Source of the DNA: Bacilli bacterium
Lineage (GTDB): Bacteria > Bacillota_I > Bacilli_A > RFN20 > CAG-826
Assembly (NCBI GenBank): GCA_017651165.1
Contig: JAGCDH010000010.1
Coordinates: 17,658 to 81,657 of the forward strand
DNA: 64,000 nt
Direction of reading: 5' to 3'
The notes below the pieces were generated by a model that was given only the letters and a program-made list of their open reading frames with translations, searched no databases and was not told the origin of the DNA. Of the stretch, positions 3,891 to 41,136 are shown piece after piece. Numbering within the stretch: the stretch's first letter is position 1; every line of letters starts with the position of its first letter. The translations under genes were made by a program, and so were the position numbers.

Positions 3891-5591
3891 ATGCATTCAA
3901 TTAGAACAAAAACAACATTATTAAACGCCATAGCTATTGTGATCGCGGTCTTCGTGGCCACATTAATTGGTGCGATTACAATTGCTAACTTAGGACATAA
4001 TGATTCAGAAAAATCATTAAATCTTTTGTGTGAAACTGGAAAAAATAATCTTAACTACTACTTTAAGAGTGTTTCCCAGTCCATTGATACCGTGTCATCA
4101 ATTATCGAAGACGATTTAAAGAAAACTGATGACGCTGATTTTGGAAACCATATGAAACGCGCTTTCAGTTGGTTCCAAGAGGCAGCAAAACACACTAATG
4201 GTGCTTTAACTTATTACTATCGTATTGATCCAAATATTTCTAATAACTATCCAACTGATCCAGATGCTCCAGGTTTTTATTGGGTCAGAGAAAACGAAAC
4301 AGATACTGATTTTGTTGATTATGGCGCCACTCCTATCACCACCGATACCGATGGCTCATGTAAATGGTTCTGGGATTTAGCCCCAGCCAAAAATCCTGAT
4401 AAAAAATCAGTATGGTTAAGCCCATATATCACCGATAGGTTTAATAAATACGTTATTTCCTATAACACCCCAATCTATAAGAACAATACTTTCTATGGCG
4501 TTGCCGGTATGGAAATCCGTTATTTAGCCATGGGTAACCAAATTAATGACGTTACTTTGATGAAACATGGCTATGCCTTCATCGCGATGGGTCAAGGAAA
4601 TGAAGAAGAAAAAGGTAAACTTGTTTACCATCCACATCTTGACTTAGAAAATACTTTACCTAGTGAGTGGCCGGCTGTTCCTGAGGGCGTCAAGAAAGCG
4701 ATCGATAAGTACTATAGCTCTTCAGAAAGAAACGAGCCAATCCATTTTGAATATAAGTATAACGGTGTCAAAAAGCATGCCTCCATGCTCGGATTAAGTA
4801 ACGATATGGTTATCGTAGTCGGCATTCCATTTGCCGAAGTTAATGGTCCATGGGTCAAACTCATCATCCAAATCGTTATTGTTTCCACAATCATTTTAGT
4901 CGTCTTCGTCCTTATTACGGTTTTATATACAAGACACTTAACCAAACCATTAAAAGACTTAACAATTGCCGCGGAAGAAGTTAACAAAGGTAACTACGAT
5001 GTGGTAATTAAGTATAAAGGTAATGACGAGATAGGTGTTTTAGCTTCTACAGTTAACAATTTAATCGATCACCTCGAAGGTTACATCGGTGACCTCAATA
5101 GTTTAGCGTATGCTGATGCGTTAACATCCGTACGCAGCAAGAGCGCCTACGATATTTTCGAACGTGAAATGCAAGTTAGAATCGATGATAAGAATGACAA
5201 CCCAGAGTTTGCGATTGCCTTCTTTGATTGCGATGACTTAAAAGATATTAATGACCGCTACGGCCATGATAAAGGGGACGTGTATTTAAAGAACTCATGT
5301 CACCTCATTTGCCGTATCTTCCAACATAGTCCAATTTATAGAATTGGTGGCGATGAATTTGTCGTTGTTTTGATGGGTGAAGATTATCAACATCGTGAAA
5401 AATTAAAGAAGCAATTCATCGACAAGAGTGCAGAGATTTGTTCGTTTGCTAAAGAGCCTTGGGAACACATCTGTGTGGCTGTCGGTATCGCTGTTTATAA
5501 CGCCTCAATTGATAAGAACGTCGAAGACGTGTTAGTCCGTGCGGACCACTTGATGTACGAGAACAAACGCGAAAGAAAAAGCAAAAAATAA
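3891..5591 (+). CDS. Membrane sensor diguanylate cyclase (extracytoplasmic sensor domain, HAMP-like linker, GGDEF)
   Basis: 566 aa. Layout is TM helix, ~290-aa external domain, second TM, then a GGDEF domain. The GGDEF domain has an intact RIGGDEF motif and NDRYGHDKGD. Confidence 0.85.
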   Translation: MHSIRTKTTLLNAIAIVIAVFVATLIGAITIANLGHNDSEKSLNLLCETGKNNLNYYFKSVSQSIDTVSSIIEDDLKKTDDADFGNHMKRAFSWFQEAAKHTNGALTYYYRIDPNISNNYPTDPDAPGFYWVRENETDTDFVDYGATPITTDTDGSCKWFWDLAPAKNPDKKSVWLSPYITDRFNKYVISYNTPIYKNNTFYGVAGMEIRYLAMGNQINDVTLMKHGYAFIAMGQGNEEEKGKLVYHPHLDLENTLPSEWPAVPEGVKKAIDKYYSSSERNEPIHFEYKYNGVKKHASMLGLSNDMVIVVGIPFAEVNGPWVKLIIQIVIVSTIILVVFVLITVLYTRHLTKPLKDLTIAAEEVNKGNYDVVIKYKGNDEIGVLASTVNNLIDHLEGYIGDLNSLAYADALTSVRSKSAYDIFEREMQVRIDDKNDNPEFAIAFFDCDDLKDINDRYGHDKGDVYLKNSCHLICRIFQHSPIYRIGGDEFVVVLMGEDYQHREKLKKQFIDKSAEICSFAKEPWEHICVAVGIAVYNASIDKNVEDVLVRADHLMYENKRERKSKK

Positions 5592-7111: not shown

Positions 7112-7142
7112 TAAAAAAGACATCTCATTCTAACAAGATGTC
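7112..7142 (-). terminator. Intrinsic terminator after the leader-peptide gene pair
   Basis: On the minus strand: GACATCT-tgttagaatg-AGATGTC followed by TTTTTT. Confidence 0.6.
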
Positions 7143-7233
7143 ATCTTTTCATTTCTGTCAATGTACTACGAGAATAATACAAGGAACACTTTTTAATAAG
7201 TAGTAACACTTTTAAAAGTTAACACGAACTAAA

Positions 7234-7533
7234 TTATCTATTCTTGGTCCATTGACGTTGACATTTTTTGCATTCGTAATGAACGGTTTCATGCCCATTT
7301 GCATCACGTTCACTCCAGAACATAATGTCATCATATCCAGCGCCACATTGAGGACAATTATTTTCAGTTGAACATAATAAGCCTCCACCGGATATCGAAT
7401 TTAATTGTTCGTCGGTTAATTCCACGCCTTCTTTTTTTGCTAACTCTAAGAGTTCTTCACTGTTATTACAGGCTTTAATTTTTACAATTTGTTCTTCTGT
7501 TAAACCTTTTAATAATTCTTGTTTCATGTTCAA
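7234..7533 (-). CDS. Small protein with a Nif11-like double-glycine leader and a Cys4 zinc-ribbon-like core (RiPP/bacteriocin-precursor-like)
   Basis: 99 aa. Residues 1-50 are MNMKQELLKGLTEEQIVKIKACNNSEELLELAKKEGVELTDEQLNSISGG, which resembles Nif11-type leaders ending in GG. The core contains CPQCG and CKKC knuckles. An AAAGGAGAA Shine-Dalgarno is present. Confidence 0.6.
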   Translation of the reverse strand: MNMKQELLKGLTEEQIVKIKACNNSEELLELAKKEGVELTDEQLNSISGGGLLCSTENNCPQCGAGYDDIMFWSERDANGHETVHYECKKCQRQWTKNR

Positions 7534-7548
7534 AGTTCTCCTTTGTTG

Positions 7549-7577
7549 ATTTTATGTTATCGCGCCCTTTGTCACAA
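7549..7577 (-). promoter_or_regulatory. Putative sigma-70-type promoter of 7234..7533
   Basis: On the minus strand: TTGTGA, a 17-nt spacer, then TAAAAT. The same geometry and a shared 16-nt motif occur upstream of the paralogue. Confidence 0.4.
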
Positions 7578-7631
7578 ATGTGCATAAAGAGATGCGTTTT
7601 AGTGGCTCTTGCTGAATGGATTTTGGATTAA

Positions 7632-7895
7632 TCATTTAGAGAATTTTCTTTCACAAGCTGAGCATTTGTATGTATTTGTAGATATAAAATTGATCCAAGT
7701 AGAACCGCAATAAGGACATTCCACTACCGAAAGTGTAAGACTACATCCGCCAGATATAGCGGTAAGTTGTTCATCAGTAAGTTCGATGCCTTCTTCTTTT
7801 ACAAGTTTTAAAAGCTCATCTGGCTTTTTGCATGCTTTTACTTTAGCGATTTGTTCATCGGTTAAGCCCTTTAGTAAATCTTGTTTCATATTCAA
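7632..7895 (-). CDS. Paralogous small protein with a Nif11-like double-glycine leader and a Cys4 zinc-ribbon-like core
   Basis: 87 aa. The first 50 aa are 36/50 identical to the neighbour by my count and end in AISGG. The core is unrelated in sequence but keeps CPYCG and CSAC knuckles. An AAAGGAGAG Shine-Dalgarno is present. Confidence 0.6.
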   Translation of the reverse strand: MNMKQDLLKGLTDEQIAKVKACKKPDELLKLVKEEGIELTDEQLTAISGGCSLTLSVVECPYCGSTWINFISTNTYKCSACERKFSK

Positions 7896-7910
7896 AGCTC
7901 TCCTTTATTA

Positions 7911-7939
7911 ATGATAGTTTGACACAATGTTTGTCACAG
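7911..7939 (-). promoter_or_regulatory. Putative promoter of 7632..7895
   Basis: On the minus strand: CTGTGA, a 17-nt spacer, then TATCAT. It contains the shared motif GCACTTCTGTGACAAA. Confidence 0.4.
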
Positions 7940-7954
7940 AAGTGCCACAAACAA

Positions 7955-8041
7955 TTATTCCTTTTTCCATTTGTGACCACAGTCATAGCATTCGCAATCG
8001 TATGCAGGGCTGAAATCAATAATATTATCATTATGTTGTGT
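7955..8041 (-). pseudogene. Possible remnant of the C-terminal knuckle of a third zinc-ribbon peptide paralogue
   Basis: An open frame without a start codon reads ...DFSPAYDCECYDCGHKWKKE*. Compare the C-termini CKKCQRQWTKNR* and CSACERKFSK* of the two intact genes. It has the same orientation and sits directly upstream of them. Confidence 0.3.
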
Positions 8042-8060
8042 TTAAGTCTGTTTGCGAATA

Positions 8061-8092
8061 AGAAAAAACAGTGACTTTGTATCATCACTGTT
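8061..8092 (-). terminator. Intrinsic terminator after tRNA-Thr
   Basis: On the minus strand: AACAGTGA-10 nt-TCACTGTT followed by TTTTTTCT. Confidence 0.6.
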
Positions 8093-8101
8093 GCTAACAG
8101 A

Positions 8102-8175
8102 TGGTGCCCCCTGGCGGAATCGGACCACCGATTCATCCTTACCATGGATGCGTAATACCATTTTACTAAGGGGGC
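8102..8175 (-). tRNA. tRNA-Thr (anticodon GGT), CCA encoded
   Basis: Hand-folded cloverleaf: acceptor GCCCCCT/AGGGGGC, D-arm GTAA/TTAC, anticodon arm CATCC-ATGGTAA-GGATG, T-arm GGTGG-TCCGATT-CCGCC. The T-loop has C at position 55. Confidence 0.85.
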
Positions 8176-8223: not shown

Positions 8224-9264
8224 TCAATCTAAATTAGGTTCGACGTAATTGCTATCGTATTCAAATTCGTAGAGCGTATTTGTCGTGGTACCAAAAGCAA
8301 TGAGACGATTTTTATCACTGACCGCGACGTTTTCATATTCTTCATAATAGCCAAGAGCACCAATGTCTTGGTAATCTTTGACTATGACACCATTACGTGT
8401 ATCAATCACGCGCATCTTTGGAGCGTTATCTGGATCGTTTTTCTTATGGAAAGAGAATGTTTGATAAAGGAAGCCATCAGAGATGAAGCCACCTTGAGTA
8501 GCGGTTTCACTTGGAAGAGTGAAAGTATCAAAGTAGCTATATTCGACCTCGATTTCCACTTCACGACGGCGATAATCAGGCATCGCAAAGGTGTAGTACA
8601 CCAATTGGCTATCACTAGATTTACGATAGGAGTTTTTGGTGTAACCACTATAAATGAGTAAATTGTACTCATAGTCATAGTAGGAGTTTGGATAATATAA
8701 ACGATTAGTGTCGTTGAATTTTAAAATGATTCTTTGCACTTCTTCTATACAGTAGACACCCGCTTTTTGATAGATACGGAAACCGATGGTTTGGCCGATA
8801 TTTTCCATTGAGATATAAAGAAGTGGGAATTTATCTTCCGCTGAATAATAGGTCGTACCAAAGAAACAAGTATTGCAGTGATATTTAGTGTTGGTTTGGC
8901 CGGTATAAATCGTGTGTGCCACATTCATGGTATCTAAATCATAGATGATGATACATTCAAAGTTATTTGAGCATAATAAATAGTAATTATGGTAGCATGT
9001 TCCACCTTGATAGTTTCCATAGGAAGAAATGTCGACGATGCGTTTAAGACGCTTGATTGATTTAAGTTCAAAAGTTCCGGCATCGGCTCTAAAGAAATTG
9101 CCTTCGAAATAAAGGTTTTCAAAGAAGTATTCACCACTGAAGAAATAATTCAATGTGGAGATGGTAATTGGTGCGGCAAAAGCAATTGAAACGAGGACTG
9201 GATATTTGACGATCCATTTCCACACTTTCATTAAGAAGAGCACAAAACGATTACTACTTTTCAT
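8224..9264 (-). CDS. Hypothetical membrane-anchored protein (one N-terminal TM, Tyr/Asn-rich external domain)
   Basis: 346-aa ORF. It overlaps the upstream ORF by 11 nt. No family recognised. Confidence 0.55.
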   Translation of the reverse strand: MKSSNRFVLFLMKVWKWIVKYPVLVSIAFAAPITISTLNYFFSGEYFFENLYFEGNFFRADAGTFELKSIKRLKRIVDISSYGNYQGGTCYHNYYLLCSNNFECIIIYDLDTMNVAHTIYTGQTNTKYHCNTCFFGTTYYSAEDKFPLLYISMENIGQTIGFRIYQKAGVYCIEEVQRIILKFNDTNRLYYPNSYYDYEYNLLIYSGYTKNSYRKSSDSQLVYYTFAMPDYRRREVEIEVEYSYFDTFTLPSETATQGGFISDGFLYQTFSFHKKNDPDNAPKMRVIDTRNGVIVKDYQDIGALGYYEEYENVAVSDKNRLIAFGTTTNTLYEFEYDSNYVEPNLD

Positions 9265-9955
9265 CTTTTTGAACCTCCTCTTTTTTTGGTAAAGCCTTAT
9301 TAAACTGCTTATAAATAAGCAATGTTATCACAAAATGGAAGATATAACTGAGCGCGATAAGACCCCAATCGCCATATAAGAAGAAGCGGTTCATAAAGCG
9401 ATTGACCATTACTAAATAGGTTCTTGATAATAACGCAAAGAGCAAATCTACGCCGAAGATAACGAGTGTTCCATACATCGCAAAGCGTGTCACTTTAGCG
9501 CCTTTTTCATGCCCGATTCTTTTAAACACTTCATTCGTCGCTTTGTAATACAAAAAATAAAATAAGACAAATAGGAAATCAGTCGTCCATTTTAAGCCGC
9601 GACCAACCGCTGCATAAACTGGCGTTTTGGTATCTTGTAAGATTCCAATGAATAAAATGGTCGCTAGATAGATATCAATCGTTAAAAATGAACGGAAGAA
9701 ATCTCGATTAATAGATCTTAGTTTGCTAAGCGTAATGATAAATAAAATGGAAGCCACATAGGCTAATGTACTGAAATATCGAAAGAAACGTGGCACACCG
9801 TTAATCGTGGTCGCGTTATTAATCGTTGAAATAATTAAAATGATTTGGCCAATAAAAATGAAAACAAAAAACTTGAGATAACGACGTGGATTATCTACGC
9901 GTGCTGCGAGTTCCTCGTTATTAAGCGATGTTCTATTTTCTTCCATGTTATTCAT
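9254..9955 (-). CDS. Hypothetical polytopic membrane protein (~6 TM)
   Basis: 233-aa ORF with hydrophobic segments throughout. No family recognised. Confidence 0.55.
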   Translation of the reverse strand: MNNMEENRTSLNNEELAARVDNPRRYLKFFVFIFIGQIILIISTINNATTINGVPRFFRYFSTLAYVASILFIITLSKLRSINRDFFRSFLTIDIYLATILFIGILQDTKTPVYAAVGRGLKWTTDFLFVLFYFLYYKATNEVFKRIGHEKGAKVTRFAMYGTLVIFGVDLLFALLSRTYLVMVNRFMNRFFLYGDWGLIALSYIFHFVITLLIYKQFNKALPKKEEVQKDEK

Positions 9956-9985: not shown

Positions 9986-11278
9986 TTATTTGTTTAGTGT
10001 TTCTCCATAAAGGTCATAAACGTAGGCTTCTAAGATGCGAACTTGTACTTTATCGCCTTCTTTTAATGCCCTATCGCTTCTAAATAAGATTTTACCATCG
10101 ATATCGTCAGGAGCGTTAAAGTAACTCCTTAATAAATAATAATCATTTTCTTTTCCGACCACTAAGCCTGTCATTACTTCGCCGATGTGGTGTTTGTTTT
10201 GTTCATATGAAATACCTTGTTGGAGTTCCATTAGTGTTTCTAAACGCTTTTGTTTGGTGTTTTCTCTTACTTGATGTGGGAAGTCATAAGACTTTGTTCC
10301 CTCTTCTCTTGAGTATTTAAAAGCGCCTAAATGGTCAAATTTGATTTCTTTAACAAACTCTAACATGTTATCAAAGTCTTCTTTAGTTTCACCTGGAAAA
10401 CCCACCATAATGGTGGTTCTAAGGATAGCGTGAGGAATTTTATTCCTGATCTTCGCAAAGAGCTCTTTTAGGTAAGTTTTATCGCCGCGCCTATTCATGG
10501 CTTTTAAGATTTTATCTTCGCTATGTTGGATTGGAATATCAAAGTATGGAGTTAATCTTTCTTCTTTAGCGATTAAATCGATGAGTTCATCAGTAATTTC
10601 ATCGGGATATAAATAAAGAAGGCGGATATATTCTAAGCCTTGAATCTTTAATAACTCCTTAAGGAGATCCACAATTGTTTTCTTTTCTTTAAGGTCCAAG
10701 CCATAACGGGTTGTATCTTGTTCTAAAACGATTAGTTCTTTATAGCCCTCGTTAGCGAGTTTCTTGGCTTCCTCAATAACACTTTCAAACGGACGTGAGA
10801 CATATGGTCCTCTAATAAGAGGAATCGCACAATATGTGCAACAATTTGAACAACCTTCACCAATTTTTAAATAAGCAGAATAACTACCTGTAGACACTAA
10901 ACGATAATTATCATTTAATCCTTCGTAGTTAGTGAGTTCATTATCTAATGTCGCAAGTAAAGCGTTAAAGCGTGGATAGTCTCTAATTGGAATCCATAAG
11001 TCTACTTCTGGAATCTCTTTAGCTAGTTCATCTTTGTAGCGATTCACTAAACAGCCGGTGACCACCACTTTTTGTTTTTTGCCGATATTATCAAGAATTG
11101 TGTCGATGCTTTCTTTCTTACTGGATTCTACGAATCCACATGTATTGATAATTAAGATATCCGCTTCCTCTTTATTGTTAACAATCTCGTAATGATTTTT
11201 TAAGAGCAAACCTAAAATATTCTCACTATCGACGAGATTTTTTTCACATCCCAAAGAGATGAGAGCAACTTTTTTCAT
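9986..11278 (-). CDS. rimO: Ribosomal protein S12 methylthiotransferase RimO
   Basis: 430 aa. The N-terminus MKKVALISLGCEKNLVDSE is typical of RimO. The radical-SAM motif is CSNCCTYC, followed by a TRAM-like C-terminus. Confidence 0.9.
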   Translation of the reverse strand: MKKVALISLGCEKNLVDSENILGLLLKNHYEIVNNKEEADILIINTCGFVESSKKESIDTILDNIGKKQKVVVTGCLVNRYKDELAKEIPEVDLWIPIRDYPRFNALLATLDNELTNYEGLNDNYRLVSTGSYSAYLKIGEGCSNCCTYCAIPLIRGPYVSRPFESVIEEAKKLANEGYKELIVLEQDTTRYGLDLKEKKTIVDLLKELLKIQGLEYIRLLYLYPDEITDELIDLIAKEERLTPYFDIPIQHSEDKILKAMNRRGDKTYLKELFAKIRNKIPHAILRTTIMVGFPGETKEDFDNMLEFVKEIKFDHLGAFKYSREEGTKSYDFPHQVRENTKQKRLETLMELQQGISYEQNKHHIGEVMTGLVVGKENDYYLLRSYFNAPDDIDGKILFRSDRALKEGDKVQVRILEAYVYDLYGETLNK

Positions 11279-14200
11279 TATTCAGTCCTTAATGCGACAA
11301 CTGGATCTTGTCTAGAAGCGTGCATACTTGGAATGAAGCCCGCTAAGACGGATAAGAGGATGCTTAAGCCTATCATGATACCGATAATTGGTAATGTTAA
11401 GACGGCGATTGCAGGGATACCAAATGGTGACACTACTGCGTTAATAATCAAACAAACAATGCCTGTTACCACAATACCGATGATGCCACTCATCGTACCA
11501 GTAACCAGGTTCTCGGCAATGAATAGACGTGAAACGTCTCTCTTTCGACCACCAAGAGAACGGATAACACCAATTTCCTTAACTCTTTCCATGACCGAGA
11601 TATACGTAATAACCGCAATCATGAAGGAAGAAACGACCAAGGATAATGAGGTGAAAATAACTAACGCGGTCGTAATAATTGTAATCATTGTATTGATGAC
11701 ACTAATGATCATCGAAATTGTATCAGTATAGGTTAATTCACTACGTTCAGCATAAGTGAGTAAATTCTCCTCGTCAGTGCGGTCTGGATCGTGAAGCACG
11801 ATGTCTTTCTTTTCGTTCCATTGATCGAGGTATTTGTTCACTTTGTTTTTGTATTGGAAGTTGACTGGATAGATATCCATTTCCACTGGTAAGTTATCAC
11901 GATACTCATAGCCAGTGATATTACCATCTGTGTCTGTTAATGTGAGCTGTTTCAAACCACAAAGAGAACGGAAATGGGTTTCATTTTCTTCAGCGTAATC
12001 AACGCCAGTGATGTTGGAAAGAAGCGAAGAGAACGAGGAGTTCAAGTCACCATTTAAGCAAGAAGCAAAACCAGTATCCATGAATGGATTATCTGGATCT
12101 GAATAATCTGGATATCTAAAAGTTACATAAGCATTATAGATTGAAGTTTGTTTAGAAGCGGTCTCCATACACATACTTTCAAAGTGTTTGGTAATCGCAC
12201 TATTCTTCGCATCATTCATATATTTGGCTTGGAATTCTTTGGTGTAATAAACACCACGTCTTAAACAACCAAAATTAACACCTTTCTTTGGTTTTAAGAT
12301 ACCGGCAACTTTCATTTCTACACCACCAGTCCAAGATGGATCAGCTTGAGCTGGATATTGGAAAGCGGTAATTTCTCTTTGCTCAGTTTTTTCTTTATTA
12401 CATAAGAAAGACTCAGTTGTTGGAGCGCCACCAAGAATGAGATTTTGTAAATTCGTTGAAACAACTGCGGTTGTATCATCGCCACTTTCAATGTTGACGA
12501 TAGAAAGAGCAGCATAGTCTGATGGCTGCAAGCCACCACCACCAGCGATCAGTCTAATCGCTTGATCGGAAGGAATGCAGATAAATGTACCTGTGGTTGG
12601 ATCTTGGCCTTCTTCTTCTGGATCCGCTAACATGTCAACAAATTTATCACCATTATAGAAAGAGGCGATTAATGGAGAAGCTGCTGGATTAGTTGGATCG
12701 TAATCATATTTCATCTTCACAAGATAGACACTTTCATATGAGTTTGGATTGATAGTAAGGTGAGTACCATTGTAAACAATGGCGTTGAATAAACTCATCG
12801 TTGAATTGTCGCTATAAGAAATGACATAGAATTCATCATCGGTGTCTGTTCTTAAGACGACATTGTATTCATTAAAGGCACTATCTTCGAGTTCTTTTGG
12901 CGATGTGCCGTAGATTGTGTCGTGTGGATAATATGTGAACTGTTTGCCCATCAATTCTTGGAAGCTTAAAGCACCACGATATGGATACTTTGTATCCAAT
13001 TGATCGAGTTCCTCCTGTGGAGTTTCTGGGTCATATTTCTTAATTGCCTTCTTGGCAATATTCATAAGTTCTTCTTCTTGGTAATAACCCATTTGAGCAA
13101 AGACCAAATCGGTTAAGGTTTGATCGCCTTCCACGACTAACATAATTTCGTTTTCATTTTGTGGGAAGTGTGCGTTTTCACCTAATAAATCATATTGGGT
13201 TAAGATGTAATCTTCACCGCCTGGAAGCAAAAGCATGAAGTCTGTGAATAAATCCACATATTGCGCATATTGTTCAAAACCAGGAACTGTGTGAAGTTCA
13301 CCGATATATCTTTGTGTTAAACCGTTAAGGGAAATTTTGCACTGTTCTCTCAAGCCTGTGTCAGCATCTGTATAAGACCAATCAGCAAAGATGTTATTTG
13401 TAGGGTCAATACCATATTTATATGAGATAGAGGAAATATACTCCGCTGGAATCTCTTTGACGAATTGGACTAAATCATCGTTAATTTCATTAGTTTTAAC
13501 TGACATGATGTCGTTATATTTATCCATCAAGTAGTCAATCATGGAATTAAGACCAACTTCAGTTTTAGTATCAAAATCTTTGATTTTTGAATCGGTATTA
13601 GCGTATAAGCCAGTCATCAAAGATGAGTAGTCAACGGCTTCTTCGGCAATCTGGAGAGGATAGCTGGACAACATATCATCTTGCATATCGTGGATGTACA
13701 TATGAACACCTGTAGACGCAGATAAGACTGTGGCCACACCAAAGATACCAATACTACCTGCGATAGAAACGAGAATTGTTCTCTTGGATTTGGATAACAA
13801 GTTGGAAACAGATAGCGCGGTCGCTGTTAAGAAGGACATTGAGCTCTTTTTCTTTTTACCCTTGTTCACTTCTTCCTCGGCTTCTTGTTCCGCAGGATAC
13901 TCTTCTTTAGAATCATCGTATGGATTGCTATCACCTTTGATAGAGCCATCGAACATATTAACGATACGGGTCGCGTATTTTTCCGCTAAATCTGGGTTAT
14001 GGGTAACCATGATGACCAAGCGGTCTTTAGCCACTTCTTTGAGAAGATCCATAACTTGGATGGATGTTTCACTATCAAGAGCGCCGGTTGGTTCATCGGC
14101 TAATAAGATTTCTGGGTTATTAATTAAAGCACGAGCGATAGCCACTCTTTGCATTTGACCACCAGAGAGTTGATTTGGTTTCTTTTTCTCCATGCCTTTT

Positions 14201-14595
14201 AAGCCGACTTTTTCTAACGCGGCATAGGCTCTTTCTTTTCTCTCTTTTTTATCAACACCCGCAATGGTTAAAGCGAGTTCAACGTTTTTGCATACTGATT
14301 GGTGACCGATTAAGTTATAGGCTTGAAAGACAAAACCAACAGAATGGTTGCGATATGTATCCCAATCACGATCGGTATAGTTCTTCGTGGATTTACCTTT
14401 GATGATTAAATCACCATCGCTATAGCGATCTAAGCCACCGATAATATTTAATAATGTGGTTTTACCACAGCCTGAAGGACCTAAAATTGCGACGAATTCA
14501 TTACGCCTAAAACTAAGAGATAATCCTCTTAAAGCCCTTACAGGTTCTTGATCCTTCATCAAGTAATTCTTTTTAACATCAACTAGTCTAAGCAT
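11278..14595 (-). CDS. Fused ABC transporter (N-terminal ATPase plus FtsX/MacB-type permease) with a very large extracytoplasmic domain
   Basis: Walker A is GPSGCGKTT, the signature is LSGGQMQR and Walker B is LLADEPTG. TM1 lies near aa 265-290, followed by ~680 aa of external domain and three C-terminal FtsX-type TM helices. The ATG at 14595 (MLRLVDVKKNY) is preceded by GAAGGA. Its stop overlaps the rimO start as TAATG. Confidence 0.85.
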   Translation of the reverse strand: MLRLVDVKKNYLMKDQEPVRALRGLSLSFRRNEFVAILGPSGCGKTTLLNIIGGLDRYSDGDLIIKGKSTKNYTDRDWDTYRNHSVGFVFQAYNLIGHQSVCKNVELALTIAGVDKKERKERAYAALEKVGLKGMEKKKPNQLSGGQMQRVAIARALINNPEILLADEPTGALDSETSIQVMDLLKEVAKDRLVIMVTHNPDLAEKYATRIVNMFDGSIKGDSNPYDDSKEEYPAEQEAEEEVNKGKKKKSSMSFLTATALSVSNLLSKSKRTILVSIAGSIGIFGVATVLSASTGVHMYIHDMQDDMLSSYPLQIAEEAVDYSSLMTGLYANTDSKIKDFDTKTEVGLNSMIDYLMDKYNDIMSVKTNEINDDLVQFVKEIPAEYISSISYKYGIDPTNNIFADWSYTDADTGLREQCKISLNGLTQRYIGELHTVPGFEQYAQYVDLFTDFMLLLPGGEDYILTQYDLLGENAHFPQNENEIMLVVEGDQTLTDLVFAQMGYYQEEELMNIAKKAIKKYDPETPQEELDQLDTKYPYRGALSFQELMGKQFTYYPHDTIYGTSPKELEDSAFNEYNVVLRTDTDDEFYVISYSDNSTMSLFNAIVYNGTHLTINPNSYESVYLVKMKYDYDPTNPAASPLIASFYNGDKFVDMLADPEEEGQDPTTGTFICIPSDQAIRLIAGGGGLQPSDYAALSIVNIESGDDTTAVVSTNLQNLILGGAPTTESFLCNKEKTEQREITAFQYPAQADPSWTGGVEMKVAGILKPKKGVNFGCLRRGVYYTKEFQAKYMNDAKNSAITKHFESMCMETASKQTSIYNAYVTFRYPDYSDPDNPFMDTGFASCLNGDLNSSFSSLLSNITGVDYAEENETHFRSLCGLKQLTLTDTDGNITGYEYRDNLPVEMDIYPVNFQYKNKVNKYLDQWNEKKDIVLHDPDRTDEENLLTYAERSELTYTDTISMIISVINTMITIITTALVIFTSLSLVVSSFMIAVITYISVMERVKEIGVIRSLGGRKRDVSRLFIAENLVTGTMSGIIGIVVTGIVCLIINAVVSPFGIPAIAVLTLPIIGIMIGLSILLSVLAGFIPSMHASRQDPVVALRTE

Positions 14596-14685
14596 AAACA
14601 AAATCCTTCAATATATATTGAATAATAGCAACACAAAAAAAGAAATGCAATTTAAATGCATTTGACTTAATAAAAAAAGCCACCC

Positions 14686-32422: not shown

Positions 32423-34759
32423 TCATCTCTTCTTCTTTGGTTTACTCACTAAGATATCATCAGATAGTTCAAATTCACCGTTTTTGATTCTATCCATGAT
32501 GTCTTGATAGCTTAATGGTTTGCCGTACAAGTAGCCTTGTAAACGACCACAGCTCGCTTCTTCAAGGAAGGCGGCTTGTTCCATTGTTTCAACACCTTCA
32601 CAAAGTGTCTTCATACCGATTTGATCCGCCATTGAAATAACGGATTTAATTAAGGCACGGGCTTTATTATTATCACTAAAGCCTGTTAAGAATTTCATGT
32701 CGAGTTTTAAGACATCGAATTCATAGTCTTTTAAGACGTTGAATGAGGAATAGCCACTACCGAAATCATCAAGCCATGTGGCAAAGCCTCTTTCATGGAG
32801 ACGATTGATGGTAAGTTTTAATGTATCTTCTTCATCCGTTAAAGCGGATTCAGTAATTTCAATGTGGAGTAATTCGTGAGGAACCTTGTATTGTTCCACT
32901 GTTTCAGTAACGACTTCGACGATATCGATTAAACCAAAGTCCGCTCTAGAAAAGTTGATGGAAACTGGTAGGACTGGTAAGCCGTTATCTAAGTTATGAC
33001 GGATGTCTTGGCAGACGAGTCTTAAGATTTCTTTATCTAATTTGTAGATAAGTCTTGCATTTTCTAAGGCTGGAACAAACTTTGCAGGAGACATAAATCC
33101 ATACTTTGGATCAATCCATCTTGCTAAGGCTTCCGCACCACATAAGCTTCTACCTTTGGACCACACGACTGGTTGATAGAATGCTTTGAGATAACCCTTT
33201 TCAATCGCTTCATCGATATGAGTGACAATATACTGCACCATTAAGTAGTTATCGTGCATTTGTTCGTCGTAATAAAGGATGCGTTCACCGCTATTCTTTT
33301 GCTTTAATGCAGAATAAGCATATCTTGCTTTTTCCACAGCGTAGTGAGGATCATCGTTTGGATTATATACTTCGTAAGCACCAACCATGATACCTGGTTT
33401 GATATCTGGTTCAAGCGCTTGAATTCTTTCATTAATGCTATTAATCTTTTCTTCAATGTCTTTGTTATAGCAGAAGACCACAAAGTGATCGTCAGATTGA
33501 CGACAGACTAAAGCGAGTTCATTAAATGTTTCACTAATGATTTGACCAATGGTCTTTAAGAACTCATTACCTTGTTCAAATCCCTTTTGATCATTATAAA
33601 CTTTAAAGTTTGTGACATTGATAAATAGATACACGCTGTCGCTCTTTTGAATGTTGTATCTATCAATACGTTCTTTGACTTGAGTTGTGAAATATTCAAA
33701 GCCTAATAAACCTGTAAGTTTATCTTTAGTGGCTAATTCTTCTAACTCTTCGTCTTTCTTGGCTTCTGAAATACGCTGGTTATAAATGGAAATACAGACC
33801 ATTGTCAGCGAGATATAGAAAGTAATGTAATTGATTCTATCGCCATCTGGAAGCACTCTTCCACCTAATTTGGCGACATGGTTTATCGCAAAGAAGAATC
33901 CTAGGAATAAGACGCCTAATAGGCCGATGGAAATAAGAGGATTCCAAATTAATAAGCAACCAACATAAATGGTAAACATTAAGAAGCAAATCATCTGCTT
34001 GTTATATTTATCGTTACCAATGAAATCTTTATAAATTGGCTCACCTGTTTCACTATTGGTACCAATCTGGAACGTGGTAACAGCCGAATTGGTGAAATCG
34101 CTATAGGAAACCATGACACCAAATGTCAAGCACACCAAGGCGAATAAGGAGATGACCATGACCGAACTAACAGATTCTCTTCTCCCGCCTTTATAACGGT
34201 AGATTGACGAGAAGATAATACCAATATCGAACATAATAATTGCGGCATAGAAAACAAGTCGCAAAATACTATATATCGTGACGGCATTCATCTCTGATGA
34301 AAGAGAAATTGACTCTATGCCTTTTTTAAATTCAAGAGGTAAGAAACAGCAAATAAGTAAAGAAACACCCGCTGCCACAATCGGAATGATCATTTTGCTC
34401 AGTGTTTTCTTTTTGCTGATGTACTGTAAAGAATACACAAACATAGCCATACCAAATGACATTAAGACAAAATAGATGGATGTGTATTTATAAAGAAGTT
34501 CAAAAGCAGATAGCCCGACTTCTTTAGGTTTTAAGTTAGCAGGATCAATAATTTTAGGAATGGCATATTCTTTCATTTGGCGAATTACTAGCCAAACTTC
34601 CAAAACGAAAATAACGAAAGCCATGAAAACTGCAGATTTCATGTTTGCTTCGTTTAAATAGCCTTTGACATATTTGGAGTTTTTGCGGATACCAAAAATG
34701 TTTAAAAAACCATTCCAAAGGTTAGATAAGAATTTCATTTCACTTTCACTATACACCAA
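32423..34759 (-). CDS. Polytopic membrane c-di-GMP phosphodiesterase (degenerate GGDEF plus intact EAL)
   Basis: 778 aa with about 9 TM. The GGDEF site is degenerate (QSDDHF). The EAL motifs are intact: GAEALARW, DDFGSGYSS, EGVET and QGY. Confidence 0.8.
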   Translation of the reverse strand: MVYSESEMKFLSNLWNGFLNIFGIRKNSKYVKGYLNEANMKSAVFMAFVIFVLEVWLVIRQMKEYAIPKIIDPANLKPKEVGLSAFELLYKYTSIYFVLMSFGMAMFVYSLQYISKKKTLSKMIIPIVAAGVSLLICCFLPLEFKKGIESISLSSEMNAVTIYSILRLVFYAAIIMFDIGIIFSSIYRYKGGRRESVSSVMVISLFALVCLTFGVMVSYSDFTNSAVTTFQIGTNSETGEPIYKDFIGNDKYNKQMICFLMFTIYVGCLLIWNPLISIGLLGVLFLGFFFAINHVAKLGGRVLPDGDRINYITFYISLTMVCISIYNQRISEAKKDEELEELATKDKLTGLLGFEYFTTQVKERIDRYNIQKSDSVYLFINVTNFKVYNDQKGFEQGNEFLKTIGQIISETFNELALVCRQSDDHFVVFCYNKDIEEKINSINERIQALEPDIKPGIMVGAYEVYNPNDDPHYAVEKARYAYSALKQKNSGERILYYDEQMHDNYLMVQYIVTHIDEAIEKGYLKAFYQPVVWSKGRSLCGAEALARWIDPKYGFMSPAKFVPALENARLIYKLDKEILRLVCQDIRHNLDNGLPVLPVSINFSRADFGLIDIVEVVTETVEQYKVPHELLHIEITESALTDEEDTLKLTINRLHERGFATWLDDFGSGYSSFNVLKDYEFDVLKLDMKFLTGFSDNNKARALIKSVISMADQIGMKTLCEGVETMEQAAFLEEASCGRLQGYLYGKPLSYQDIMDRIKNGEFELSDDILVSKPKKKR

Positions 34760-37708: not shown

Positions 37709-37732
37709 TAGTTTCGAATAACAAATTAAATT

Positions 37733-37761
37733 AGGATCAGACTCAAATCTGATCCTTTTTT
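37733..37761 (+). terminator. Intrinsic terminator
   Basis: AGGATCAGA-ctcaaa-TCTGATCCT followed by TTTTT. Confidence 0.75.
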
Positions 37762-37961
37762 ATGTCCTCAATAACACGTTTGGCATTTTAGGTTAATTTT
37801 GCTACTCGCGTATGACAATTATATTAGATGTTACAAAAGTTTTATTTGTTTCAAAAACATATAAAGCTTTTCACTTGCTAAATATAGGAAAGCGACTACA
37901 ATAAATGGTAATTAGTTTTTAAAAAATTATTTTTATTACTAAAAAATAAGGAGGAAAGAAT

Positions 37962-40900: not shown

Positions 40901-41117
40901 CTTCCTTGATAAGTTAGACGCTAACGCTTCATACGATGCTTTCGATAATGAAATCGCTGCCGCTAAAGCTGCTTATAACGAATTAGTCAGCTATTCAAAA
41001 TGCGGTACCGGAGCGGGAGCATCACACGGTTTAGCGATTGTCGCTGCTACATCATCAAATTGCTCTTATCCATCTTCAGAAACACACTTTAATAACTGGA
41101 GAAGCATCTTTAAATAA
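37962..41117 (+). CDS. Large surface protein: 4 Big_3-like Ig repeats, a central domain, a Big_2 domain and a C-terminal clostripain-family (C11) cysteine peptidase domain
   Basis: The signal peptide ends in LFMSLCSCS. Four ~72-aa repeats follow the pattern Y.WGE.LD..V.A.YSDGS...V..Y.V.GF......G.Q.V...YE.K. The Big_2 signature is SSSNEDVAVVDEKGMVTGVSVGNATITA. The C11 motifs are WTIMIYMCGSNLES, ILWNHGGA and VGYDACLMQ. Confidence 0.75.
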   Translation: MANKVKKLFIVGTLATGLFMSLCSCSQDDPSAHHSSDSNSALNDNSSSNQSGKNATLESITAVNNRSSYEWGEELDVSVFANYSDGSSRQIDNYQVQGYNGQISGDHTVLFSYEGKTCSLDVRVNDPIIVSISAEGNKDTYVWGEDLNLEVKATYSDGSVSRVDQYEVEGFDSKNPGNQTVTIKYEGKTCSFNVLVNNPALTGISVSNYKDTYDWGEDLDLDVKATYEDESSKAVSNYEVEGFNKEKAGNQTVTVKYEDQSFTFDVLVNNPQMTSITAISNKDNYEYGEALDVTVYANYEDGTSEEINSYSVDGYNSKISGLQNVTIAYEDKSCSLDVAVKERVSLFPTTKLDSFLQLENVETVVPSPIGYEEWTNSVEKEQDGSNYFVAKTDDEGTVGVDSIADQYAALLNKENWNVQRNNGFYTATYYEGDVILRFNTTNNRFSLRVESYIEFPDSKLVGSVLGSKYAIKDGMVVVLGNYSDSAVIKGFDNGALVAVDGDFNDRVMNTVDKDAWRFTLNQSGDYWTISDVNGRKLGATGLGQLTWDEGSTEWKFTLTGKSTIVANAVKDYGRLVYDSTLKAITTYESTSGANMDYPQFFKLSESDIIYPTAISLDGRDNIGTGRASKLSLKYEPENANSLSDVFWSSSNEDVAVVDEKGMVTGVSVGNATITAKTKSRNAYLETSYDIEIREQVLDSWTIMIYMCGSNLESESGLASADIAEILKVSGQPDDVNIILETGGTTYWHRSDIDANALSRYHVENKQLVLDQKISKENMGKQSTFESFLTWGLHEYPAEKTGVILWNHGGALGGCCYDDSTGWYSDSLVASETASAYNNVFTANSVNKLEFVGYDACLMQVQDIADFNAPYFNYMIGSEEVENGEGWAYSSWIDDVYDGADTRTILKANCDGFISYYGLSCDQTLSYLDLSKMNNYREKFEAMAAAIKSTAKANWNAFKSIISKTYRYYDFSYYGLIDGLDFLDKLDANASYDAFDNEIAAAKAAYNELVSYSKCGTGAGASHGLAIVAATSSNCSYPSSETHFNNWRSIFK
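38127..38984 (+). repeat. Four tandem ~216-bp coding repeats (Ig-like modules)
   Basis: The repeat period is ~72 aa, seen in the translation at aa 56-341. Confidence 0.75.
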
Positions 41118-41136
41118 GAGTTTCCATTAATTAAAT

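What the first reader, a model, noticed from the sequence alone, without database searches (positions are those of the whole stretch)
7234..7895. Tandem orphan genes: conserved Nif11-like double-glycine leader fused to divergent Cys4 zinc-ribbon-like cores
**What is seen.** Two adjacent small genes encode 99 and 87 aa. They share a 50-aa N-terminus that is 36/50 identical by my count. It looks like Nif11-type RiPP leaders (helical, with KAC..(E/D)ELL.L.K.EG.ELTDEQL..ISGG) and ends in the GG cleavage motif.

After GG the sequences are essentially unrelated, except for two CxxC knuckles:
- CPQCG...CKKC in the first protein.
- CPYCG...CSAC in the second protein.

A Cys also lies close to the GG. 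A conserved leader with a hypervariable core is the classic precursor-peptide signature.

**What is unusual.**
- The cores are long (49 and 37 aa) and look like self-folding zinc ribbons rather than lanthipeptide or sactipeptide substrates.
- No modifying enzyme, C39-peptidase ABC exporter or immunity gene is recognisable in the flanks.
- Each gene has its own promoter-like element and Shine-Dalgarno.

These could be secreted zinc-ribbon mini-proteins processed by a distant PCAT, or a non-RiPP use of the Nif11 fold.
Basis: partly seen in the sequence, partly recalled or inferred. Interest (0 to 1): 0.7.

Follow-up and report, generated by a model that had tools for sequence, protein, structure and literature searches.

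The report
Leader-tagged secreted zinc-ribbon mini-protein genes
These two small genes belong to a large, unnamed family in rumen bacteria whose members carry a bacteriocin-type export-and-cleavage tag fused to a tiny zinc-ribbon domain. In related genomes the family goes with a dedicated modifying-enzyme and exporter operon, which suggests bacteria may secrete libraries of folded metal-binding mini-proteins by a route known for short peptide antibiotics.

Summary
**Observation.** It is confirmed. Two minus-strand genes (7234-7527, 97 aa; 7632-7889, 85 aa) share a 48-aa leader ending in SGG. After the GG, each has an unrelated CPxCG...CxxC core.

**Not orphans.**
- A family profile finds 527 cluster representatives (50% identity) at E<=1e-10.
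- 293 copies lie in rumen Erysipelotrichaceae/Bacilli and Lachnospiraceae genomes, at least 14-17 per genome, mostly dispersed.
- Among 250 unique members, 249 end in GG and 244 have two CxxC knuckles. All 250 have a Cys 1-5 residues after the GG.

**Fold.** AlphaFold models the gene-1 core as a three-stranded zinc ribbon (pLDDT 85-90). Its best structural matches are TFIIS/Rpb9/NrdR ribbons.

**Processing genes.** The window holds no maturase or exporter. Relatives carry a conserved operon:
- a HipA-like kinase;
- a short Cys-only precursor;
- a radical-SAM/SPASM enzyme;
- a mini-HlyD protein;
- a C39-peptidase ABC exporter;
- a second ABC transporter.

One relative has this operon on one contig and the gene-1 ortholog on another. 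A shared TGTGRCA direct repeat precedes the precursor genes and, in some genomes, the operon.

**Best reading.** These are dispersed precursors that are cleaved after GG and exported as zinc-ribbon mini-proteins, probably modified at the N-terminal Cys. It is a new variant of Nif11/NHLP-type systems. The chemistry and function are untested.

The parts
7632..7889 (-). Gene 2, an 85-aa precursor. Leader codons 7746-7889 (residues 1-48, ending ISGG), core 7635-7745 (37 aa, CSLTLSVVECPYCGSTWINFISTNTYKCSACERKFSK), stop 7632-7634.
   Evidence: ORF list. The same 85-aa gene is called in L082-L084. Leader-HMM score 97.3 bits. Weak zinc-ribbon and Nif11 hits. Core-type relatives are 57-63% identical in L053 and L073/L074, and 95% identical in P0104.
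7234..7527 (-). Gene 1, a 97-aa precursor. Leader codons 7384-7527 (residues 1-48, ending ISGG), core 7237-7383 (49 aa, GLLCSTENNCPQCGAGYDDIMFWSERDANGHETVHYECKKCQRQWTKNR), stop 7234-7236.
   Evidence: ORF list. Leader-HMM score 99.7 bits. AlphaFold core pLDDT 85-90 with three strands. Foldseek matches TFIIS/RPA12/Rpb9/NrdR zinc ribbons. Orthologues are 84-91% identical in protein across 12 species.
7920..7949 (-). Three tandem TGTG(G/A/T)CA repeats (TGTGGCAC-TTC-TGTGACAA-ACAT-TGTGTCA, period 11-12 bp) upstream of gene 2. This is the candidate shared operator or activator site.
   Evidence: These are the only two (overlapping) matches to the pair pattern in 64 kb, against 0.07 expected. The 7-mers TGTGACA and TGTGGCA are 27-31 times enriched upstream of family genes. 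112 of 248 upstream regions carry a tandem pair at -60 or -49 from the ATG.
7549..7577 (-). Promoter-like site of gene 1 (TTGTGA, 17 nt, TAAAAT). Its first hexamer overlaps a single TGTGACA repeat (7570-7576).
   Evidence: Promoter scan. The region is conserved in 12 orthologous loci and in the family upstream consensus.
7537..7543 (-). Shine-Dalgarno AAGGAGA of gene 1, 9 nt before the ATG.
   Evidence: Read from the sequence. AGGAG lies at about -15 in 155 of 248 family genes.
7899..7905 (-). Shine-Dalgarno AAGGAGA of gene 2.
   Evidence: Read from the sequence and seen in the family upstream consensus.
7150..7233 (-). A conserved stretch of about 85 nt just after gene 1. It contains AAAAGTGTT(A/C)C repeats and TTGTATTATTCTCGTAGTAC. 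Its function is unknown.
   Evidence: Near-identical in L004-L015 although the flanks cannot be aligned. RNAalifold finds no convincing structure and Rfam gives no family above its gathering score.
7119..7142 (-). Terminator-like hairpin followed by a T-run, which ends the gene 2-gene 1 unit.
   Evidence: Terminator scan. No terminator is predicted between gene 2 and gene 1.

Best explanation
Genes 1 and 2 are two dispersed members of a multigene family of precursor proteins.

**Build of each protein.**
- A 48-aa helical, Nif11-like double-glycine leader.
- A short flexible tail that always contains one Cys.
- A TFIIS-like C4 zinc ribbon of about 40 aa.

**Proposed sequence of events.**
1. Each gene is transcribed from its own promoter, which carries a family-wide TGTGRCA direct-repeat site. 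The conserved site is shown. Its regulatory role is inferred.
2. The leader, with hydrophobic residues at -4, -7 and -12 and GG at -2/-1, is recognised by an NHLM-type C39-peptidase ABC exporter encoded elsewhere in the genome. The exporter cuts after G48 and secretes the core. This is inferred from operons in relatives. The exporter is not in this window.
3. Before export, the radical-SAM/SPASM enzyme of that operon probably modifies the precursor at or from the invariant Cys next to the cleavage site. The most likely product is a single SkfB-like thioether. The operon's HipA-like kinase may act as well. This is inference and the chemistry is unknown.
4. The released 49-aa and 37-aa products fold around zinc as stable mini-proteins suited to the anoxic rumen. 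Their variable surfaces would give each core type its own target. The fold is predicted. Metal binding, target and function are unknown.
For: **Family and leader.**
- 167 homologues and 527 cluster representatives at E<=1e-10.
- 249 of 250 leaders end in GG and 240 of 250 are exactly 48 aa.
- 44 of 58 members hit TIGR03798 leader_Nif11 at E<=0.01.
- The leader motif matches the published N11P/NHLP motif (PMC2887384).

**Link to processing genes.**
- L001/L002 hold 12 precursors around a radical-SAM/SPASM enzyme, followed by a 130-aa membrane protein, a C39 exporter and a second ABC transporter. The two transporters score 819.5 bits on TIGR03796 and 655 bits on TIGR03797.
- The same enzyme, membrane protein and exporter recur in L028, L076, L085-L089 and L091-L095. 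In L090 the enzyme lies apart from, and inverted relative to, the other two.
- The MAG ruminal_MAG_116 (WGS prefix JBGURM01) has the operon on contig 13 (L091) and the gene-1 ortholog on contig 48 (L009).
- The TGTGRCA pair also precedes the kinase gene that heads the operon in L028 and L076, and a copy of it within precursor arrays in L025 and L056.

**Zinc ribbon.**
- 244 of 250 cores have two CxxC knuckles, 219 have CPxC and 225 have CxxCG.
- The AlphaFold model has core pLDDT 85-90.
- Foldseek matches RPA12, Rpb9, TFIIS and NrdR ribbons with rmsd about 2 A over 42-45 residues.

**Selection and the invariant Cys.**
- dN/dS is about 0.15 for both leader and core across 396 ortholog-like pairs.
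- A Cys lies at +1 to +5 in all 250 members, including the short ribbon-less precursors next to the radical-SAM gene.
- Gene-1 orthologues move this Cys (GGGLLCST to GGCLFSST) but never lose it.
- The best solved relative of the radical-SAM enzyme is the sactipeptide maturase SkfB, E 4e-10.
Against: - Nothing in the 64-kb window encodes the exporter, the radical-SAM/SPASM enzyme or the kinase. Whether this genome has them is unknown.
- All Nif11 and double-glycine HMM scores for the window proteins fall below the curated cut-offs.
- The TIGR03796 and TIGR03797 scores also fall just below their cut-offs.
- Most operons place a short ribbon-less precursor, not a ribbon precursor, next to the radical-SAM gene. 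The enzyme might therefore act only on that peptide.
- The variable position of the first Cys, and its variable distance to the ribbon (4-17 residues), is unusual for a fixed cross-link.
- The loci retrieved from Lachnospiraceae show precursors only.
- No experimental data exist. AlphaFold does not model metal.
Confidence: 0.58

Rival explanations
1. The proteins are exported but not modified. The C39 exporter cleaves and secretes the ribbon proteins, as it does class II bacteriocins. The radical-SAM enzyme and the kinase act only on the short Cys-containing precursor, which could be a signalling peptide.
For: - Short precursors of 61-65 aa sit directly upstream of the radical-SAM gene in L028, L088/L089, L091 and L092-L094.
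- The ribbon cores have every feature of an autonomous fold.
- Most ribbon genes lie far from the enzyme.
Against: - In L001/L002 the radical-SAM gene lies between 12 ribbon precursors and there is no short precursor.
- Ribbon cores keep the same invariant Cys next to the GG as the short precursors, 250 of 250.
- The leaders are the same in both kinds of precursor.
Confidence: 0.22
2. The products are cross-linked peptides with no zinc. The five or six Cys are thioether donors for the radical-SAM/SPASM enzyme, as in sactipeptides or ranthipeptides, and the zinc-ribbon look is incidental.
For: - The operon encodes a radical-SAM/SPASM enzyme whose best solved relative is SkfB.
- The cores are rich in Cys.
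- Eight of 58 members weakly match TIGR04165, a Cys-rich peptide family.
Against: - The knuckle residues Pro and Gly (CPxCG, CxxCG) are conserved in about 90% of members, and the knuckles are 13-30 residues apart, as in real ribbons.
- The beta-sheet model is confident and matches solved ribbons.
- Cores of about 47 aa are long for sactipeptides.
Confidence: 0.1
3. They are intracellular zinc-ribbon proteins. The N-terminal helical region is a stable Nif11-like domain rather than a cleaved leader, and the proteins act in the cytoplasm, for example as small regulators.
For: - There is no exporter in the window.
- Nif11-domain proteins of unknown function exist.
- JGI annotators named some members 'RNA-binding Zn-ribbon protein'.
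Against: - The GG is invariant exactly where conservation ends.
- Precursor arrays are physically clustered with a C39 exporter.
- The linker around the GG is predicted to be disordered.
- Dozens of paralogues share one N-terminal domain, which is the pattern of precursor families.
Confidence: 0.06
4. They are non-functional leftovers. The copies were separated from their operon and are decaying or silent in this genome.
For: They are isolated in the window, and gene 1's upstream repeat is reduced to a single good copy.
Against: - Both reading frames, both Shine-Dalgarno sequences and the gene-1 promoter are intact.
- Identical copies occur in three other assemblies.
- Gene 1 is strongly conserved in 12 species.
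- Dispersal is the rule for the family.
Confidence: 0.04

Closest known systems
Nif11-derived (N11P) and NHLP precursor families with the NHLM export cassette (Haft, Basu and Mitchell 2010, PMC2887384; TIGR03798, TIGR03794, TIGR03796, TIGR03797)
   Same: - A long helical leader that ends in ...EL(S/T)DE(E/Q)L..(V/I)(A/S)GG.
- Large paralogous families with divergent cores, often far from their enzymes.
- An export set made of a C39-ABC transporter, a second ABC transporter and a HlyD-like protein.
   Different: - All curated HMM cut-offs are missed, narrowly for the two transporters.
- The leader is 48 aa against about 69 aa.
[quoted passage not shown]
- The HlyD-like protein is cut down to about 130 aa.
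- The partner enzymes are a radical-SAM/SPASM protein and a HipA-like kinase, not a cyclodehydratase or LanM.
- The hosts are rumen Firmicutes.
Prochlorosins (ProcA precursors and ProcM in marine picocyanobacteria)
   Same: - Many precursor genes with one conserved Nif11-type leader and diverse cores.
- The precursor genes are scattered around the genome, away from a single set of processing genes.
   Different: - No LanM-type enzyme was seen in any locus annotated here.
- The cores are metal-binding mini-domains.
- Each core type is conserved across species rather than varying from strain to strain.
Sactipeptides and ranthipeptides (SkfA/SkfB, subtilosin, SCIFF/CteB, PapB)
   Same: - A radical-SAM/SPASM maturase sits next to Cys-containing precursors, and SkfB is its best solved relative.
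- A donor Cys lies near the N-terminus of the core.
   Different: - No curated sactipeptide or ranthipeptide model reaches its cut-off.
- The cores are longer and carry canonical zinc knuckles.
- The thioether is purely hypothetical here.
Class II bacteriocin loci with double-glycine leaders, peptidase-containing ABC exporters and a pheromone with a two-component system (plantaricin, Blp and Com types; from general knowledge)
   Same: - A GG leader with hydrophobic residues at -4, -7 and -12.
- A C39 exporter.
- A short GG-leader peptide next to a histidine kinase and response regulator in some operons.
- Direct repeats upstream of every structural gene.
   Different: - The response regulator's output domain is not recognisable as LytTR.
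- The cargo is a zinc ribbon.
- A radical-SAM enzyme and a kinase are present.
- No immunity genes were recognised.
TFIIS/Rpb9/RPA12 C-terminal zinc ribbons and the NrdR N-terminal zinc ribbon
   Same: A predicted three-stranded ribbon with two CxxC knuckles, rmsd about 2 A over 42-45 residues.
   Different: Those are intracellular nucleic-acid or polymerase-binding modules. Here the ribbon is the cargo of a secretion leader.

Membership tests
Nif11-like leader peptide RiPP precursors (TIGR03798 / Pfam PF07862) | The HMM score reaches the curated cut-off. | tested here: not met
   TIGR03798 gives 16.3 and 21.5 bits against a cut-off of 32.3. PF07862 gives 18.7 and 18.3 bits against 23.8. The weak match is consistent across the family: 44 of 58 members at E<=0.01.
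Nif11-like leader peptide RiPP precursors (TIGR03798 / Pfam PF07862) | [quoted passage not shown] | tested here: met
   Gene 1 has ELTDEQLNSISGG and gene 2 has ELTDEQLTAISGG. 249 of 250 family members end in GG. The reference motif is taken from PMC2887384.
Nif11-like leader peptide RiPP precursors (TIGR03798 / Pfam PF07862) | A paralogous family with divergent cores, often remote from the enzymes. | tested here: met
   Mean pairwise identity is 0.73 for leaders and 0.31 for cores. Genomes carry at least 14-17 copies on several contigs.
NHLM-type export system (TIGR03794, TIGR03796, TIGR03797) | A C39-peptidase ABC transporter, a second ABC transporter and a HlyD-like protein are encoded with, or in the same genome as, the precursors. 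| tested here: inconclusive
   None is present in the window. In relatives, TIGR03796 scores 819.5 bits against 853.3 and TIGR03797 scores 655 against 709.4. A 130-aa protein matches only the first 50 positions of TIGR03794. Same-genome linkage is shown for the MAG with WGS prefix JBGURM01.
Double-glycine leader bacteriocin signal (TIGR01847) | The HMM score reaches the cut-off, and hydrophobic residues lie at -4, -7 and -12 before the GG. | tested here: inconclusive
   The scores are 15.3 and 14.4 bits against 15.7. I(-4), L(-7) and L(-12) are present in both proteins, read from the sequence.
C4 zinc ribbon fold | Two CxxC knuckles flank a three-stranded antiparallel sheet. | tested here: met
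   The motifs are in both window proteins and in 244 of 250 relatives. The AlphaFold strands are 68-74, 80-86 and 92-96, with pLDDT 85-90. Foldseek matches solved ribbons with probability 1.0 and E 0.02-0.05. This is a prediction only.
C4 zinc ribbon fold | Stoichiometric binding of zinc (or iron). | not testable with these tools
   This needs metal analysis of purified protein.
Sactipeptides / ranthipeptides | A radical-SAM/SPASM maturase is encoded with the precursor. | tested here: inconclusive
   None is in the window. In relatives a 464-465-aa protein with Radical_SAM and SPASM domains lies beside or among precursors. No curated maturase family reaches its cut-off.
Sactipeptides / ranthipeptides | A Cys sulfur to carbon thioether in the mature peptide. 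| not testable with these tools
   This needs mass spectrometry or NMR of the product.
Prochlorosin-type lanthipeptides | A LanM/ProcM lanthionine synthetase is present in the genome or locus. | tested here: not met
   No LanM-type domain appears among the Pfam annotations of the window ORFs scanned or of the operon loci. Whole genomes were not searched.

The most novel reading that the evidence does not exclude
This may be an unrecognised class of ribosomal products. A Nif11-type leader would deliver folded zinc-ribbon mini-proteins, dozens of distinct conserved types per genome, first to a radical-SAM/SPASM enzyme and a HipA-like kinase and then to a C39 exporter. The whole dispersed set would form one regulon. 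A TGTGRCA-repeat promoter element would switch it on, possibly under control of the operon's own short Cys-containing peptide acting as a secreted signal through the adjacent histidine kinase and response regulator. Metal-stabilised rather than disulfide-stabilised secreted mini-proteins would suit an anoxic habitat.
Probability: 0.35. Interest if true: 0.8.

Novelty: new variant of a known kind. Interest (0 to 1): 0.62.

Why it matters
**For the field.** Leader-guided peptide pathways (RiPPs and class II bacteriocins) are thought of as handling short, unstructured cores. This family attaches the same kind of leader to an autonomous zinc-ribbon domain.
- The family is large: 527 clusters at E<=1e-10 and at least 14-17 genes per genome.
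- It is under purifying selection.
- It goes with an uncharacterised radical-SAM/SPASM enzyme family, with more than 120 clusters (90% identity) that are 75-89% identical to the query, all without a functional name.
- It also goes with a HipA-like kinase that carries no annotation.

**If the model holds.**
- It would extend the cargo range of peptidase-containing ABC exporters.
- It would supply a new radical-SAM chemistry to work out.
- It would reveal a large, unexplored set of secreted mini-proteins in the rumen, an ecosystem of agricultural importance.
- It would offer small, stable, diversifiable zinc-ribbon scaffolds with a built-in secretion tag.

**For annotation.** These genes are labelled 'hypothetical' or mislabelled 'RNA-binding Zn-ribbon'. 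They could be named as a family.

Tried and rejected
- **Processing genes in the window.** I looked for an exporter, a SPASM enzyme and the kinase. Pfam on 30 ORFs and tblastn with the operon proteins found none. The window's only radical-SAM genes are two MiaB/RimO-type enzymes and a weak hit in an unscanned 243-aa ORF beside the anaerobic ribonucleotide reductase gene, probably its activase.
- **Neighbours as immunity or partner genes.** The unknown membrane proteins at 8224-9264 and 9254-9955 have no family hits. They are absent from the orthologous loci of other species, so they are not conserved partners.
- **RNA elements.** Rfam gave no family above its gathering score apart from tRNA-Thr. 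RNAalifold on the conserved stretch after gene 1 gave -4 kcal/mol and no covariation.
- **Phage origin.** No relative was found on IMG/VR viral contigs.
- **Published descriptions.** Seven full-text searches, plus a term search of a 2026 rumen bacteriocin survey, found no account of GG-leader zinc-ribbon precursors. The library is incomplete, so this is not proof.
- **Response regulator type.** I tried to type the regulator next to the operon as LytTR. Only the receiver domain is recognisable.
- **Horizontal transfer of gene 1.** This would explain its extreme conservation, but the locus is syntenic (near rimO) in several species, so plain transfer is not enough. The question is left open.
- **A lipobox reading of the GG-x-C.** I rejected it. 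The leader is charged and helical and has no hydrophobic signal-peptide core.
Full report
**1. What is in the window**

The finding lies on the minus strand. The ORF list gives 7234-7533 (99 aa) and 7632-7895 (87 aa), both starting at TTG. In each case an ATG two codons further in lies 9 nt (gene 1) or 8 nt (gene 2) downstream of an AAGGAGA Shine-Dalgarno. This gives gene 1 = 7234-7527 (97 aa) and gene 2 = 7632-7889 (85 aa). Gene callers chose these same starts on three independent rumen metagenome contigs that carry the identical pair (L082-L084).

The two proteins align with E 3e-29. Residues 1-48 are 34/48 identical and end in ISGG. After that only CPQCG...CKKC and CPYCG...CSAC correspond. 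A Cys follows the GG at +4 in gene 1 and at +1 in gene 2.

The surroundings on the minus strand are as follows.
- A tRNA-Thr (8102-8175) with its terminator (8067-8092) lies upstream of gene 2.
- A terminator-like hairpin (7119-7142) follows gene 1.
- No terminator is predicted between the two genes.

**2. Not orphans, but a large family**

- A sequence search returned 167 proteins of about 85-118 aa with E<=0.01.
- A profile of 58 of them found 527 cluster representatives (50% identity) at E<=1e-10, among 1.84 billion proteins.
- A scan of one genome per species confirmed 293 copies. The 80 best loci are almost all rumen MAGs labelled Erysipelotrichaceae, Bacilli or Bacillales, plus Lachnospiraceae and Pseudobutyrivibrio.
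- A leader HMM run on all fetched loci found 281 leader-encoding genes, of which only two are in this window.
- Single genomes carry at least 14-17 copies spread over several contigs. Some form arrays of 9-13 genes (L022, L034, L046, L025, L033) and many are singletons.
- The only functional names given by any source are JGI's 'bacteriocin-like protein' and 'RNA-binding Zn-ribbon protein'; otherwise NCBI and JGI label members 'hypothetical protein'.

**3. Anatomy of the family** (250 unique members)

| Feature | Count or value |
|---|---|
| Leader exactly 48 aa | 240 |
| Leader ends (S/N/T/A)GG | 249 |
| Mean pairwise identity, leader | 0.73 |
| Mean pairwise identity, core | 0.31 |
| Core length, median | 47 aa |
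| Two CxxC knuckles | 244 |
| CPxC | 219 |
| CxxCG | 225 |
| Spacing between knuckles | 13-30 residues |
| Cys per core | 5 in 117 members, 6 in 113 |
| First Cys at +1 to +5 after the GG | 250 |

The first Cys is the most constant feature of the core. It is present even in five short cores that have no ribbon. In gene-1 orthologues it moves from GGGLLCST to GGCLFSST but is never lost. The residues after it are rich in Ser and Thr, but no single position is fixed.

**4. The leader**

- Both window proteins hit Nif11 (PF07862: 18.7 and 18.3 bits, cut-off 23.8).
- Both hit leader_Nif11 (TIGR03798: 16.3 and 21.5 bits, cut-off 32.3).
- Both hit the Gram-positive double-glycine signal (TIGR01847: 15.3 and 14.4 bits, cut-off 15.7).
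- All of these scores are below threshold.
- TIGR03798 is still the family matched most often across the family: 44 of 58 members at E<=0.01, best 6.8e-6.
- The last 13 residues (ELTDEQLNSISGG) closely match the N11P and NHLP motif published by Haft et al., ELSDEELEAVAGG and ELSDEQLDAVAGG.
- Hydrophobic residues lie at -4, -7 and -12. From general knowledge, these are the positions that C39 peptidase domains read.

The relationship is therefore real but distant. Formal membership by the curated cut-offs is not met.

**5. The core**

AlphaFold was run on gene 1 with the 58-sequence alignment.
- Residues 57-97 form three beta strands with pLDDT 85-90.
- The leader forms three helices at low confidence (pLDDT 46-64).
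- The GG region (residues 46-53) is disordered.

The best Foldseek matches are the C-terminal zinc ribbons of RPA12, Rpb9 and TFIIS and the N-terminal ribbon of NrdR. They have rmsd about 2 A over 42-45 residues, probability 1.0 and E 0.02-0.05. This agrees with the weak Pfam and NCBIfam ribbon hits.

Conservation of the knuckle Pro and Gly argues that the four Cys are metal ligands and not merely cross-link donors. Its ribbon assignment rests on its motifs and on weak HMM hits.

**6. The processing genes in relatives**

In L001/L002 twelve precursors surround a 465-aa enzyme with Radical_SAM, Fer4_12 and SPASM domains. Three further genes follow:
- a 130-aa membrane protein whose N-terminus weakly matches the NHLM HlyD-like protein;
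- a 723-aa C39-peptidase ABC transporter (TIGR03796: 819.5 bits, cut-off 853.3);
- a 727-aa ABC transporter without a peptidase domain (TIGR03797: 655 bits, cut-off 709.4).

The C39 domain contains the QLEALECGAASL stretch with the putative catalytic Cys (read).

The same unit, radical-SAM enzyme followed by the ~130-aa protein and the C39-ABC exporter, recurs in L028, L076, L085-L089 and L091-L095. The second ABC transporter follows wherever the contig extends that far. In L090 the enzyme lies apart from, and inverted relative to, the others. L003 is cut off after the start of the radical-SAM gene.

Two further conserved members emerged.

*A short precursor.* It is 61-65 aa, with the same leader followed by GG and then sequences such as ACSSTKEENGHRKFES, CDSSNKDNKKRKIES, GCSDSTANKNKIRKIES or CDNTKPKKKIIED. 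It lies directly upstream of the radical-SAM gene.

*A protein of about 390 aa.* It has 221 homologues, and those that carry a name are 'hypothetical protein'.
- Its invariant SDLHFDN and APIYDLGG motifs align with the catalytic loop of the HipA-like kinase CtkA.
- Its AlphaFold model (pLDDT 89.4) matches CtkA and HipA with E as low as 1e-6.

The radical-SAM enzyme family is large and tightly conserved. More than 120 clusters (90% identity) are 75-89% identical to the query. No curated maturase model reaches its cut-off. Its best solved relative is the sactipeptide maturase SkfB, E 4e-10.

Partner-switching genes (STAS, SpoIIE, HATPase_c_2) often flank the operon. In some genomes a PF06580 histidine kinase with a response regulator flanks it as well.

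**7. Link between dispersed genes and the operon**

- *Same genome.* The MAG with WGS prefix JBGURM01 carries the operon on contig 13 (L091). It carries the orthologue of window gene 1 (87% protein identity) on contig 48 (L009) and precursor arrays on contig 9. Remote placement of gene 1 is therefore normal in a relative that has the machinery.
- *Shared upstream element.* The 7-mers TGTGACA and TGTGGCA are 27-31 times enriched in the 130 nt upstream of family genes.
- *Tandem pairs.* 112 of 248 upstream regions hold a tandem pair with an 11-12 bp period, starting about 60 or 49 nt before the ATG.
- *Where the pairs lie.* Of 199 such pairs in 1.42 Mb of loci, 148 lie directly upstream of leader genes. 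Several others lie about 67 nt upstream of the kinase gene, which heads the operon in L028 and L076 and sits within precursor arrays in L025 and L056.
- *In the window.* The only matches to the pattern in 64 kb are the overlapping pairs at 7920-7949, upstream of gene 2, against 0.07 expected. Gene 1 keeps one good repeat (7570-7576), which overlaps the first hexamer of its TTGTGA-17-TAAAAT promoter.

I infer a common regulon. The regulator has not been identified.

**8. Evolution**

Arrays in different species carry the same roughly twelve core types, each well conserved. Across 396 ortholog-like pairs, dN/dS is about 0.15 for both leader and core. The cores are thus diversified but individually constrained, unlike cores that vary from strain to strain.

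Gene 1 is an extreme case.
- In 12 species the stretch from 55 nt upstream of the ATG to about 85 nt past the stop codon is 84-94% identical in DNA.
- Core dS is 0.10 and leader dS is 0.34.
- The neighbouring syntenic rimO is only 67-68% identical in DNA and 57-68% in protein.
- The flanks cannot be aligned.

I could not explain this.

**9. Mechanism and its status**

*Shown.*
- The gene structures and the family.
- The invariant GG and first Cys.
- The ribbon motifs.
- The physical association with a C39 exporter and a radical-SAM operon in relatives.
- The shared upstream repeats.
- Purifying selection.

*Predicted.* The zinc-ribbon fold and the kinase fold.

*Inferred.*
- Cleavage after G48 and export by a remote exporter in this organism.
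- Modification by the radical-SAM enzyme at or from the first Cys. A single SkfB-like thioether is my best guess, at about one chance in three.
- Zinc binding.
- Co-regulation through the repeats.
- Any biological activity.

The absence of recognisable immunity genes, together with dozens of conserved types per genome, fits poorly with classical bacteriocins. Function remains open, as it does for prochlorosins.

**10. Comparison and verdict**

The system works like a Nif11/NHLP-type precursor family with NHLM export, and in genomic layout it resembles the prochlorosins. It differs in four ways:
- the folded zinc-ribbon cargo;
- the radical-SAM/SPASM enzyme and HipA-like kinase as partners;
- the truncated HlyD-like protein;
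- its hosts, which are rumen Firmicutes.

It fails the curated sequence thresholds of every named family I tested. I found no description of it in the searchable literature.

I rate it a new variant of a known kind.

Noticed in passing
window 7150-7583 (-); L004-L015: The gene-1 cassette (promoter, gene and about 85 nt after the stop codon) is 84-94% identical in DNA across 12 species. Core dS is 0.10. The neighbouring syntenic rimO is only 67-68% identical in DNA. Either the cassette spread recently between species or it is constrained at the nucleotide level.
   Followed up: partly
window 7150-7233 (-): The conserved stretch after gene 1 contains AAAAGTGTT(A/C)C repeats, and one 20-nt unit is present or absent between species. 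No RNA structure or Rfam family was found. One extra partial copy lies at L007 5538.
   Followed up: partly
window 8102-8175 (-): A tRNA-Thr (GGT) with its own terminator (8067-8092) lies immediately upstream of gene 2. The listed ORF 7855-8145 overlaps it and is probably spurious.
   Followed up: partly
window 8224-9264 (-) and 9254-9955 (-): Two membrane-associated proteins (346 aa and 233 aa) have no Pfam or NCBIfam match. They lie between rimO and the precursor pair and are absent from the orthologous loci of other species, so they look like a lineage-specific insertion.
   Followed up: partly
L092 8257-9420; L001 2066-3232; L028, L076, L088, L091 (about 390 aa): An unannotated HipA/CtkA-like kinase family is a conserved member of the radical-SAM and exporter operon. 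It has 221 homologues, and the few that carry a name are 'hypothetical protein'. Its substrate is unknown.
   Followed up: partly
L088 9788-9982; L091 9779-9970; L092 9801-9998; L028 6533-6718; L003 65-262: Short precursors with the same leader are followed by only a Cys and a 12-20-aa Lys-rich tail that often ends in K(I/F)ES. They usually lie directly upstream of the radical-SAM gene, and in some genomes next to a histidine kinase and response regulator. They may be signalling peptides.
   Followed up: partly
L085 1-9856; L092 1-6033 and 16248-19550; L001 19046-20300: The operon is flanked by several STAS, SpoIIE-phosphatase, HATPase_c_2 and STAS-APH genes, which are partner-switching modules. 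In L085 and L092 a 2407-aa non-ribosomal peptide synthetase and a MatE-HATPase_c_2 fusion also lie nearby.
   Followed up: no
window 3891-5591, 32423-34759, 52161-53294: Three c-di-GMP turnover proteins (GGDEF or GGDEF-EAL) lie within 64 kb. GGDEF genes also lie near precursors or operons in L003, L088, L090 and L091.
   Followed up: no
window 35132-42981, 50222-51961, 55647-58073: A run of probable surface or secreted proteins: a collagen-repeat protein (858 aa), a clostripain C11 protein with Big_3 and Big_2 domains (1051 aa), a PAD_porph peptidyl-arginine deiminase, a CotH kinase and an M6 peptidase.
   Followed up: no
window 11278-14601 (-): An 1107-aa fusion of an ABC ATPase with an FtsX-type permease lies next to rimO. 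The pair is syntenic with rimO in L006, L008, L010, L012 and L013.
   Followed up: no
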